Assembly (NCBI GenBank): GCA_043228905.1
Contig: JBHGNT010000002.1
Coordinates: 19,468,001 to 19,532,000 of the forward strand
Origin: Azolla caroliniana
Lineage: Eukaryota; Plantae; Polypodiophyta
Length of the DNA stretch: 64,000 nucleotides
Reading direction: 5' to 3'
Below the pieces are notes generated by a model. It saw nothing but the letters and a program-made list of their open reading frames with translations, was not told where the DNA came from and ran no database searches. Below, piece by piece: positions 17,569 to 21,104 of this stretch (position 1 is the stretch's first letter; every line of letters begins with the position of its first letter). Made by a program: the position numbers and the translations under genes.

Positions 17569-20500
17569 TTACATATCCTTGAAGAGTTCTTGCTCCTCTC
17601 TGGTGAGTACCACGTCACAGAACTCTTCTTTGCCGAGATCAGAGTAGTCGTCAAAATTACTAGTGTCATCAGGACCCTATGCATCAAAATACAACATATT
17701 GTATGTAACAGTCAGTGATGGTAGAGATAACTTCACACATTAGCCATGAAACATATTGTGTACGAGATGGTACATGATATGAGATACAAAATGCAACATA
17801 CATGGTATCAAGTAATAACATGGTACGCGATATCCACATCACGATACAAAACATGATGTATTTTCACGTGTATAATAACGTTAAGAATTTCTTTTACTGC
17901 TGCAGATAGGCAATACGAGCTATATTTTCTGGATAGAAATTTACCTTAACCTTAGGCTGAATTGGAGGGCTTTCCCTTTGGTTCATCATACTCTCCCAAT
18001 TCACATTAGCAAACCATGAATGGTTCTTGATATCAGCCACACCACCTTTCAGGCAACCAAGCCTGTTGATATTGAATGTGGATGGGCCTGAAGTGTGATC
18101 AGTACATGCCTTTACGTTATACAATCAATATATAGCTCTTCATTGCATAGAGAGGTTGATCTTTCTTTCCAAGCTGTCTATCTATACACACATATATATT
18201 ACATAAAAAAAGAAGTTTTACCTCTTAGAGAGTTCGGCCGTTAGAAGCTTTCTTATCAAATCCTTTGCACTGAATGAAGAGAAATAATAAATGTTACTTC
18301 CTGTACAGTACAGATATTAACACCTTTTTTTGCACTGAATGAATGGGAAACCCAATGTAACTTTTCTTTTTTGAAATATAGATATAACTAAAGTCTGCAT
18401 CTTTTTTTTGTTTTGTACTTGATGAAAATATCTATTTGTAACTTCTTTTTGACAGCACAGAGAACATTAGCTGAATGAATGTAATCACTACAGTAAGGAC
18501 ATTCAAAACCAAGATGGAAACTTTTTTTTACCTTCTGGAGAAATGCTGTGGGAACACAATTTTCCCAGACAAAATCTTTTGGTAAATCTGCATGGGATCT
18601 GTTTGGCAACCCAAGAAAAAAGATCATAGAAAAAGTCTGAATTCTACAAAGAAAATTAAAACAAAATTTCGACAACTAAGAGTTCTGTTCAGTAGCAGCC
18701 AAACCGTTATCATAGAATGGAGCAAAGCCTGCGAGCATCTCATATATCAGTACACCAAATGCCCACCTGTGACAAGAAACAAAACAGTTTTCAACACACA
18801 AACATCTCTCTCAAGTCCTAGGAAAATATCAATGTAAAAAAGTTACCATTTTCCCTGATTGTGTACAATGTCTTAATCAAAAAACAAAGTGCACTTTATT
18901 TTTTTAACAAAAAAAAAAAGAAAGAAGGAAAGAAATGGGCAACTATTTTTTATGAGCATAGGAGCATAAACTTGCGAAATATATCATTCTTGCACCCCCT
19001 ACCAGTCTACAGGTTTTCCATGCCCTTTTCCGAGAATTACTTCTGGCGCCAAGTAATCTGGTGTTCCTGTTAAAATAAGATAGCATGACTAATGCTGATC
19101 CATGAGTTGATTTTGGCTTCATATTTTTGCATAATGCATGTGATTAATTAATCTCCATTTGACTTCCATCTCATTATTTACCACATAGAGTGTATGTCCG
19201 TGTATCAATCTTTTTGGCAAATCCAAAATCTGCAAGCTTGATGTTACCTTTGTCATTAAGGAGGATATTCTCTGGCTGTTTTTAAAAAGATTCAAAACAA
19301 AGGGCACACGAATTAGCATAAAAACACATTGTGAAATGACTCACTCAAAAGCAGATGTATGAGAGACAGAAAATGTATTGAAACACAAATGTTAATATTG
19401 ACATCTTCAAAGTGTCAAAATGGCCAATGAATAAGATAAAGATCTTGAATGTATATTCATAGCGCAATACAGGGTGCAAATACCTTCAAATCACGGTAAA
19501 CAACATCCCTGCTATGTATGTATTCGAATGCAAGAAGGACTTGGGCTGCATAGAACCGCTACAAATGCCCATGGAATAAGTTGGGAGAAACCAACACACA
19601 TGTGATCATTTTTGGGTATTATTCAGAAGAGAATCAAGTAATTCATTAGCTTATAGTTTTTTTCAAATTTAATTTCTTTAAATCATGTCACTACTCACAG
19701 CAGTATCTTCGTCAAATTTTCTCATGTTCCGTAGATATGTGAAAAACTCACCCCTGCATTAACCATGGAAGATACCTTTTTTATCAAAGCTTTCAAATGA
19801 ATTTTTCTTATTCGCATTTTGGGAGGAAACATTGTTATGCCATACCCAGAGACATAATCCATCAATAGATAAATGTGTGCTTCATCTTGGCTGAAACCCA
19901 CCAAATTGACGATGAATGGGGAATCAATCATTTCTAGTAGCCCTTTCTCAGCTTTAACATGATCAAGCTGGGTAAAAACAAAACAAAACAAAACAAAAAT
20001 AACGTATGGATTGATCTCATCTCGTCATGCATGGAAAAAAAAGCATTGGTTTTCTTTCCCAATGTTATATAGAATGTTAGGAAATATCAACAATAACTCT
20101 GAAAAGAGTTTTAGGCCATATTCAATGTGATGACCCCTGGTGTTAAATGTTATATGTTTCTTTCTTCTCAATGATGGAAACTAGATTAGAGAAGGTAATT
20201 ATATCTGAAAGCCTACTTGTTTCTGGCGGAGGATCAGAGCCTTGCCCAATGCTTTAGTTGCAAAGATTGCATCGCTTCGATTCTTGCGACGAGTCAGGTA
20301 AACCCTTCCAAAGCTTCCAGTCCCAAGAATACGCCCCAACTCAAAATCTTCTATCCTACATCTTCCCAGCTTCATCTGAAAAGTATAGGAATTTCAGCAT
20401 TAATTTGAGAAATCCTTGTGAAAAAACATTTATAACTCAAACAATCCTTTATTCAAGATTCAAATGCTCCAGTTCTTGTGGCAAATATATACGAAATTTG

Positions 20501-21104
20501 AAGACAGAAAAAAAAGCATAATAACCACTATACATATAGGGCTATGCTCAAACACATATTGAACACCTTAGTTCTTGTAGGAGCAATATGTTTTTTTGAG
20601 ATGAAAACCATAACCATATATGGATTGAAATAGAATAGATAGAGAGATATTCAAACAGAGGTAAACCACCATAATTCTCTGTGGGAAACCATAGATACAT
20701 TAAAATATTATAGTTAACAGAATATAAAGCAAATGCGAAAAGCGTAATTCTAACAGTGAGAATACATGAAATGGTAAGAATGAAAAAAAAAAACGACAAG
20801 AAATGCATCAAAACATTAGAAATGAAAACAGAGAAAGAGAAAGAGGGAGAGGGTAACCCTAGAAAGATAAAAAACACAAATAGAATAGAGAAACCCTAGA
20901 AATATAAAAAATGCAGAGCGAGAGAACCCTGGAAAGGTACAATAAAAAAAAAACATAGAGGGAGAGAGATATGTAATATACCCTGGATCTTCCATTAAAG
21001 GAGGAAGAAGATGAAGATGAAGAGGAGGAGGGGTTAGAGGCAGAGGTGTTGATGACCCTCCTGCTAAAAATTCGGTTTATAACAGAATTCTTGCTGTCTG
21101 CCAT
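17569..21104 (-). CDS. PKAC: cAMP-dependent protein kinase catalytic subunit (PKA-C)-like AGC kinase, 364 aa
   Basis: Twelve exons join in frame to 1095 nt with all GT-AG introns: 21104-20982, 20375-20217, 19967-19846, 19753-19699, 19558-19484, 19275-19182, 19066-19003, 18766-18705, 18598-18532, 18269-18222, 18062-17945, 17676-17569. Motifs [68 protein letters not shown]-terminal ELFKDM. Confidence 0.93.

What the first reader, a model, noticed from the sequence alone, without database searches (positions are those of the whole stretch)
17569..21104. Intact canonical PKA catalytic subunit in a plant genome
Seen: 12 small exons, mostly missed by the ORF track, build a full kinase with PKA hallmarks ([24 protein letters not shown] with the T197-equivalent, DTSNFDDY tail). 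Known: angiosperms lack canonical PKA, while a cAMP module (CAPE adenylyl cyclase and PKA regulatory subunit) acts in sperm motility in Marchantia. Inference: the host is a zoidogamous plant and the gene is likely antheridium/sperm-expressed.
Basis: partly seen in the sequence, partly recalled or inferred. Interest (0 to 1): 0.7.

Follow-up and report, generated by a model that had tools for sequence, protein, structure and literature searches.

The report
Fern protein kinase A catalytic subunit
This is an intact, spliced gene for the working half of protein kinase A in what is likely a water fern, one of four copies in a genome that also has the regulatory half and the cAMP-making enzyme; the family is already described in liverwort, and this copy likely works as a cAMP-switched kinase, but whether in sperm or in the leafy plant is untested.

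Summary
Confirmed. Twelve minus-strand exons (21104-17569, all GT-AG) give a 364-aa kinase without internal stop; spliced contigs from related organisms support 11 of 11 introns. It groups 100/100 with Ceratopteris and Adiantum proteins (70-73% identical) inside a land-plant clade holding the published Marchantia MpPKAC. The genome (523 Mb, 22 chromosome-scale contigs) also has a spliced PKA regulatory subunit, a CAPE gene and dynein heavy chains, so the motile-sperm host is right. It is not 'canonical' animal-type PKA: the tail ends F-K-D-M, not FxxF, and it sits in a green-plant clade. It is one of four paralogs in two old fern lineages. Sperm expression was not shown: transcripts of both subunits occur in runs of unknown tissue, and Cryptomeria keeps the module without motile sperm. 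Verdict: new member of a known family. The open lead is that this fern lineage may act outside sperm.

The parts
20982..21104 (-). Exon 1: start codon, short basic/hydrophobic N-terminal motif, poly-Ser linker (aa 1-41)
   Evidence: joint to exon 2 in X1 and X6; motif shared with fern and other green-plant homologs
20217..20375 (-). Exon 2: Gly-rich loop and catalytic Lys82 (= K72)
   Evidence: bridged to exon 3 by X4 record 16
19846..19967 (-). Exon 3: helix C with H97 (= H87) and E101 (= E91), hinge
19699..19753 (-). Exon 4: E137 (= E127), R143 (= R133)
19484..19558 (-). Exon 5: catalytic loop R175-D176-K178
19182..19275 (-). Exon 6: E180, N181, DFG, K199, activation loop with T207 (= T197)
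19003..19066 (-). Exon 7: P+1 loop, APE, K223 (= K213), D230
18705..18766 (-). Exon 8: helix F with E240 (= E230); A246 and N251 replace P236 and D241
18532..18598 (-). Exon 9: helix G with Y257 (= Y247)
18222..18269 (-). Exon 10: helix H up to R290 (= R280)
17945..18062 (-). Exon 11: helix I and start of the AGC tail; a second acceptor at 18087 is used in X4 and would end the protein at 307 aa
17569..17676 (-). Exon 12: AGC tail with FDDY, terminal F-K-D-M and stop

Best explanation
The gene encodes an intact, spliced land-plant PKA catalytic subunit of a fern-specific paralog lineage, which is predicted to be held inactive by the genome's pseudosubstrate-type regulatory subunit and likely released when cAMP, likely made by CAPE, binds that subunit. 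Shown: gene structure, splicing in relatives, conserved catalytic, phospho-Thr-binding and substrate-Arg-binding residues, clade, and the presence of PKA-R and CAPE genes. Inferred: phosphorylation of T207, C-R binding (probably a C:R heterodimer, since the 321-aa R has no room for a dimerization domain), cAMP release, and Arg-Arg-x-Ser/Thr targets. Site of action: the module as a whole very likely serves sperm motility as in Marchantia (about 0.85 for at least one of the four paralogs); that this copy does so is about even (0.5).
For: Gene model and splicing; 9 of 9 listed coding differences synonymous. Residue map at a constant offset to PKA-Calpha: K82, E101, D176, N181, D194; H97, R175, K199, T205 around T207; E137, E180, E240, D213; Y206, L208, K223, Y257 (Calpha letters from the alignment, their roles recalled). 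BLAST bits: Ceratopteris 13G065400 536 (73%), Marchantia Mp3g14790 433 (61%), mollusc PKA 313-320, own S6K 232, own PKG-like domain 147. Land-plant PKA-C clade 100/96, 99/95 and 100/97 in three trees. The Ceratopteris ortholog's PDB ranking: PKA-Calpha 365-378 bits, yeast PKA 340, PKG1 301-303. PKA-R at C17:17419255-17422424, 8 exons, 321 aa, inhibitor site RRSAV with Ala at the phospho-position, two cNMP domains with RAAT cassettes, 7 of 7 introns seen in contigs of X4, X5 or X6. CAPE at C7, minus strand, PDE then membrane region then class III cyclase. 19 dynein heavy-chain matches. Marchantia CAPE and PKA-R mutants have impaired sperm motility (PMC11032487).
Against: No binding, activity or tissue data for this protein. 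Terminal FxxF is F-K-D-M, no Ser aligns with S338, and P236, D241 and R134 are replaced (A246, N251, N144). AU tests did not reject joining its clade to the own PKG-like row (p 0.661, that tree scored 1.48 higher than the free tree), to both PKG rows (p 0.076) or to S6K (p 0.204); these rows are on branches of 10, 3.0 and 2.4 changes per site. X1 holds the C transcript but no contig was laid on PKA-R (no proof of absence). The CAPE model was not assembled end to end and its expression was not tested. The parts of PMC11032487 that I read report mutants and expression for CAPE and PKA-R, not for MpPKAC.
Confidence: 0.82

Rival explanations
1. Same biochemistry, different job: this fern lineage is a PKA of the leafy sporophyte, while the other three paralogs or some of them carry the sperm role.
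For: Spliced C transcripts in 3 of 4 runs laid (three studies; the fourth is probably DNA) and spliced R transcripts in 3 of 4 runs laid (two studies), both in X4 and X6. The host is inferred to be a water fern, whose male gametophyte is minute and seldom sampled (recalled). The lineage is kept in Ceratopteris and two Adiantum species. A paralog of the other lineage, Ceric.15G029300, is in the 'Frond_CoR' list of PMC13434465, so one fern PKA-C is regulated in fronds. Cryptomeria keeps C, R and CAPE without motile sperm.
Against: Tissues of the runs are not given and the runs were chosen because they hold the gene. Contig depths are low (about 3-24) and cannot rank expression. Intron-retaining, exon-skipping and early-stop forms occur, as leaky transcription would give. 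The ortholog Ceric.13G065400 appears only in the GO table of that paper, in none of its candidate lists. Marchantia R and CAPE are antheridium-enriched.
Confidence: 0.3
2. The kinase has left cAMP control and acts as an R-independent AGC kinase.
For: Lineage-specific changes near the substrate/inhibitor surface (A246, N251, shared with the Ceratopteris ortholog); one R gene found against four C genes; longest end branch in its clade (0.31-0.37).
Against: R-docking residues Y206, L208, K223, Y257 and the acidic substrate residues are kept; R is transcribed in two of the same runs; this is the only one of the four copies that keeps Thr in the Gly loop.
Confidence: 0.1
3. It is a PKG, S6K or AGCVIII kinase, a pseudogene, or contamination from a fungus or protist.
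For: Only the non-rejecting AU tests with very long branches.
Against: No cNMP domain in the 364-aa model; DFG intact and no insert after it; separate PKG-like (C3) and S6K (C1) genes exist and score 147 and 232 bits against 536 for the fern ortholog; open frame, splicing and synonymous-only differences; on a 28.4-Mb contig with plant-type neighbours and the same intron positions as three paralogs on other chromosomes.
Confidence: 0.02

Closest known systems
MpPKAC of Marchantia polymorpha (Mp3g14790, P0283; PMC11032487 Fig. S10)
   Same: 61% identical over 342 aa; same land-plant clade; same A-T-K at the catalytic Lys, Asp for E203, GHGKPVD, and a tail ending F-x-x-hydrophobic (L in Marchantia); same partners in the genome (PKA-R, CAPE). 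P0283 matches the paper's MpC in length, start and end (compared by eye).
   Different: Marchantia is reported with one C and two R; this genome has four C and one R found. This copy belongs to a fern lineage that does not group with the bryophyte proteins.
Ceratopteris KP509_13G065400 and Adiantum GOP47_0008669 / L7F22_050350 (unnamed hypothetical proteins)
   Same: Orthologs: 70-73% identical, clade 100/100; shared N-terminal motif and changes in the helix F-G loop.
   Different: This copy has a poly-Ser linker, one extra residue after the Gly-loop strand, and ends in Met.
Animal PKA-Calpha (PRKACA; PDB 1ATP and relatives)
   Same: Catalytic, phospho-T197-binding and substrate-binding residues and FDDY conserved; best PDB match of the ortholog.
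   Different: No Gly2, no FxxF end, no aligned S338, Tyr for W196; a clade with mollusc PKA is rejected (p-AU 0.029). The R partner lacks a dimerization/anchoring domain.
PRKX-type catalytic subunits
   Same: Same wider PKA family; chytrid rows that I label PRKX-like from recall score 365-380 bits.
   Different: A clade with the chytrid rows is rejected (p-AU 5e-5). No animal PRKX sequence was in the tree, so PKA versus PRKX is unresolved.

Membership tests
Land-plant PKA-C (MpPKAC family) | Groups with MpPKAC and other land-plant PKA-C proteins | tested here: met
   Clade support 100/96, 99/95, 100/97
Land-plant PKA-C (MpPKAC family) | Stand-alone kinase domain with no fused regulatory domain | tested here: met
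   364-aa model with all introns supported; ortholog has only Pkinase-type hits
Land-plant PKA-C (MpPKAC family) | Catalytic residues, activation-loop Thr and its phosphate-binding residues | tested here: met
   K82, E101, D176, N181, D194; T207 with H97, R175, K199, T205
Land-plant PKA-C (MpPKAC family) | Acidic residues for Arg-Arg-x-Ser/Thr substrates and R-docking surface | tested here: met
   E137, E180, E240, D213; Y206, L208, K223, Y257 kept; R134, P236, D241 positions changed
Land-plant PKA-C (MpPKAC family) | AGC tail with FDDY-like motif and terminal F-x-x-hydrophobic | tested here: met
   FDDY at 337-340; ends F-K-D-M; land-plant rows end in L, I, M or F
Land-plant PKA-C (MpPKAC family) | A PKA-R with inhibitor site and two cAMP cassettes in the same genome | tested here: met
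   C17 gene
Land-plant PKA-C (MpPKAC family) | Inhibition by R and release by cAMP | not testable with these tools
   Needs an assay
Land-plant PKA-C (MpPKAC family) | Antheridium/sperm expression (shown for MpPKAR and MpCAPE) | tested here: inconclusive
   Spliced in runs of unknown tissue; no organ data found
Canonical animal PKA-C (Calpha/Cbeta) | Terminal FxxF hydrophobic motif | tested here: not met
   F-K-D-M
Canonical animal PKA-C (Calpha/Cbeta) | S338 turn site and Gly2 myristoylation site | tested here: not met
   No aligned Ser (a Thr lies two residues later); starts M-A
Canonical animal PKA-C (Calpha/Cbeta) | One clade with animal PKA-C | tested here: not met
   p-AU 0.029; only three mollusc rows stood for animals
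PRKX subfamily | One clade with PRKX | tested here: inconclusive
   Rejected for chytrid stand-ins; no animal PRKX available
PKG | cNMP-binding domains fused to the kinase | tested here: not met
   None in the model; the genome's cNMP search hit other loci, not this one
S6K | Closest to S6K, with its longer hydrophobic-motif tail | tested here: not met
   232 against 536 bits; separate S6K gene on C1. AU test alone did not reject (p 0.204)
AGCVIII | DFD in place of DFG and an insert in the activation segment (recalled) | tested here: not met
   DFG at 194-196, no insert; no AGCVIII row in the trees

The most novel reading that the evidence does not exclude
Ferns split PKA-C into two old lineages, and this one is a cAMP-controlled PKA working with its regulatory subunit in the leafy sporophyte, not in sperm. 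That would be a true cAMP-PKA pathway in the body of a vascular plant, testable by knockout in Ceratopteris.
Probability: 0.3. Interest if true: 0.6.

Novelty: new member of a known kind. Interest (0 to 1): 0.25.

Why it matters
The gene itself is expected: PKA subunits and CAPE are published for plants with motile sperm. What this check adds is that ferns carry several C-subunit paralogs in at least two lineages older than the split between this genome's lineage and Ceratopteris, and that this copy and the R subunit are transcribed in general transcriptomes of relatives. Whether cAMP signals through a real PKA outside sperm in land plants is a long-disputed question, and Ceric.13G065400 is a concrete gene on which to test it.

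Tried and rejected
Genome search with the cyclase family PF00211 found nothing; this was a false negative, since the cyclase exons lie downstream of the PDE exons. PDB search with exon 2 alone ranked Aurora A and PKC-theta first: a 53-aa piece is not diagnostic. The homolog search with exon 2 found only a genomic read-through from a relative. One search included the PKG-like row by a filter mistake; it nested beside the Ceratopteris ortholog on a branch of 7.3, an artefact, and the tree was rebuilt without it. Which lineage is sister to the window's clade is open: all fern copies as one clade (p-AU 0.135) and window clade plus Cryptomeria (p-AU 0.248) were not rejected; all four own copies as one clade was (p-AU 3e-67). 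Tree used 68 database proteins of about 290 held; I left out fragments, most unnamed protist-like rows and five animal rows with duplicated or irregular domains. A second PKA-R was sought three ways and not found, which does not prove absence. No organ-level expression values were found for the Ceratopteris genes in the supplements of PMC12862073 or PMC9477723 (one scanned file unread); the Plant Cell HER7 paper is not held and preprint supplements were not seen; these may hold male-gametophyte data. The helical-moment scan of the N-terminal motif was suggestive only (80th-98th percentile). No structure or complex prediction was run: a C-R pair would pass by likeness to solved structures, and only exon-sized pieces of the own proteins could be given. 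Earlier findings of this scan: none.

Full report
Observation. Reading the minus strand in three frames gave 12 exons from 21104 to 17569. They join into 1095 nt and 364 aa without internal stop, with 11 GT-AG introns of 92-606 nt. Seven runs were listed and four were laid. Contigs of X1, X4 and X6, from three studies and related organisms, skip the predicted introns: ten appear as joints and intron 2 is bridged in a contig of X4. X2 behaves as DNA. Minor forms were seen: skipping of exons 3-5 (X1, in frame, 280 aa), a second acceptor in intron 10 (X4, early stop at 307 aa) and an unspliced piece over intron 11 (X1). Nine of the 40 listed differences are coding and all nine are synonymous. The gene is real, intact and conserved.

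Host. The genome has 523 Mb in 1503 contigs; C22 is 12.8 Mb and C23 0.64 Mb, so there are 22 chromosome-scale contigs. The closest proteins are from Ceratopteris (73%) and Adiantum (70%). Nineteen dynein heavy-chain matches fit flagellated sperm.

Identity. A stored moss-like fragment led to 28 full-length homologs, and the Ceratopteris ortholog to 120 listed of 7168; no listed row that carries an organism name is an angiosperm. In three trees the protein groups 100/100 with Ceratopteris 13G065400 and Adiantum, inside a land-plant clade (100/96, 99/95, 100/97) with lycophyte, moss, liverwort and Cryptomeria proteins, itself inside a green-plant clade. That clade holds Marchantia Mp3g14790, which matches the MpPKAC of PMC11032487 Fig. 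S10. For the ortholog, PDB ranks PKA-Calpha first, then yeast PKA, then PKG1. AU tests rejected a clade with mollusc PKA (p 0.029), with chytrid kinases (p 5e-5) and, narrowly, with a three-cNMP PKG (p 0.046). They did not reject a clade with S6K (p 0.204), both PKG rows (p 0.076) or the genome's degenerate PKG-like domain (p 0.661); those rows are on very long branches, and pairwise scores (536 against 232 and 147 bits) and domain layout exclude them. No animal PRKX or AGCVIII row was available.

Anatomy. Numbering runs 10 ahead of PKA-Calpha through the core. Catalytic residues, the T197 equivalent and its phosphate ligands, the acidic residues that read substrate arginines, and most of the R-docking surface are kept. 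Departures: Tyr for W196, Asp for E203, Asn for R134, Ala for P236, Asn for D241, no aligned S338, and F-K-D-M at the end. The non-Phe last residue is general in land-plant copies, MpPKAC included, so it marks the plant family and not decay. The roles of these residues are recalled. A short basic/hydrophobic N-terminal motif recurs across green-plant homologs; membrane or anchor binding is a guess.

Paralogs. Three more PKA-C genes lie on C5 (5468769-5464831, minus), C11 (20420644-20424047, plus) and C12 (8713898-8709965, minus); exons 2-12 were modelled with the same intron phases and open frames. They group 100/99 with Ceratopteris 15G, 25G and 28G, and a clade of all four own copies is rejected. 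So at least two fern lineages predate the split from Ceratopteris. Only the window's copy keeps Thr in the Gly loop.

Partners. PKA-R: C17:17419255-17422424, 321 aa, inhibitor site RRSAV (pseudosubstrate type), two cNMP domains with RAAT cassettes, about 40 residues before the inhibitor site and so no room for a dimerization domain; 7 of 7 introns are seen in X4, X5 or X6. One copy was found in three searches. CAPE: C7, about 18430000-18416900, minus strand, PDE exons (Pfam E 1e-28 and 3e-26), a hydrophobic middle part, and cyclase exons (E 9e-6 and 0.002) in the published order.

Mechanism. Most likely the kinase is primed at T207, docks the R subunit's Arg-Arg-Ser-Ala site in its cleft, and is freed when CAPE-made cAMP fills the two cassettes; it then phosphorylates Arg-Arg-x-Ser/Thr sites. 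All four steps are inferred from conserved residues and from animal PKA. In Marchantia, loss of CAPE or both R subunits impairs sperm swimming, so a sperm role for the fern module is likely. For this copy it is open: its transcripts and those of R occur in runs of unknown tissue, a paralog of the other lineage is listed as frond co-regulated in Ceratopteris (PMC13434465; I equate KP509 and Ceric locus numbers, and the list's definition was read only in passing), and Cryptomeria keeps the module without motile sperm.

Literature seen. PMC11032487: parts 1 and 3 of 7, passages, and part 3 of 3 of the supplement. PMC8115329 and PMC4143559: passages. PMC13434465: passages, one section, supplement rows. 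PMC12862073 and PMC9477723: supplement searches without hits. PMC5159850: listing only. Searches found no paper on fern PKA-C paralogs and none testing a land-plant PKA-C directly; the library lacks most subscription journals.

Verdict. A new member of a known family, correctly spotted. It is not a canonical animal-type subunit, and sperm expression is unproven. Interest 0.25; the fern duplication with possible sporophyte use is the lead worth following (probability 0.3, interest 0.6 if true).

Noticed in passing
window 8817-10592 (-): Intronless 590-aa frame with an RS-rich start and three RRM domains, like U2AF65 (name by recall); possibly a retrocopy.
   Followed up: no
window about 1279-3900 (+): Exons of an RCC1-repeat protein, judged by eye from the translations.
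   Followed up: no
window about 60036-61653 (-): Exons of a plant protein ending in a LysM-like motif, judged by eye; Pfam found nothing in the first exon and the second was not scanned.
   Followed up: no
window about 22350-56140: A block of transposons upstream of the kinase: a MULE element, several Ty3-type and one Ty1/copia-type LTR retroelement.
   Followed up: no
window 21000-21030 (-): The poly-Ser linker of exon 1 is about 9 nt shorter in relatives (X1, X6).
   Followed up: no
window 21075-21104 (-) and L014:4255-4330: Green-plant PKA-C proteins share a short N-terminal basic/hydrophobic motif, and the R subunit has a similar stretch; they could replace myristoylation and AKAP anchoring.
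   Followed up: partly
L014:1573-2832 (+), G000:C17: An HMG-box gene lies directly upstream of PKA-R on the same strand.
   Followed up: no
L016, G000:C3:8806000-8812000 (-): Plant PKG-like gene whose kinase domain has a degenerate catalytic loop and DFR for DFG, split by a 2.7-kb intron.
   Followed up: partly
G000:C53 and C803: A dynein heavy-chain piece occurs four times at about 29.6-kb spacing on small contig C53, resembling C12:780000; C803 repeats a C13 match. Tandem duplication or assembly redundancy.
   Followed up: no
L019-L021 (G000:C5, C11, C12): All three paralogs have Ala for Thr in the Gly loop; C11 and C12 have Asp for E127; the C5 copy ends in FxxF.
   Followed up: partly
P0161 and Table S2 of PMC11032487: Adiantum's ortholog (KAI5076604) and its PKA-R2 (KAI5076571) have accession numbers 33 apart and may be neighbours; C and R are unlinked in this genome.
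   Followed up: no
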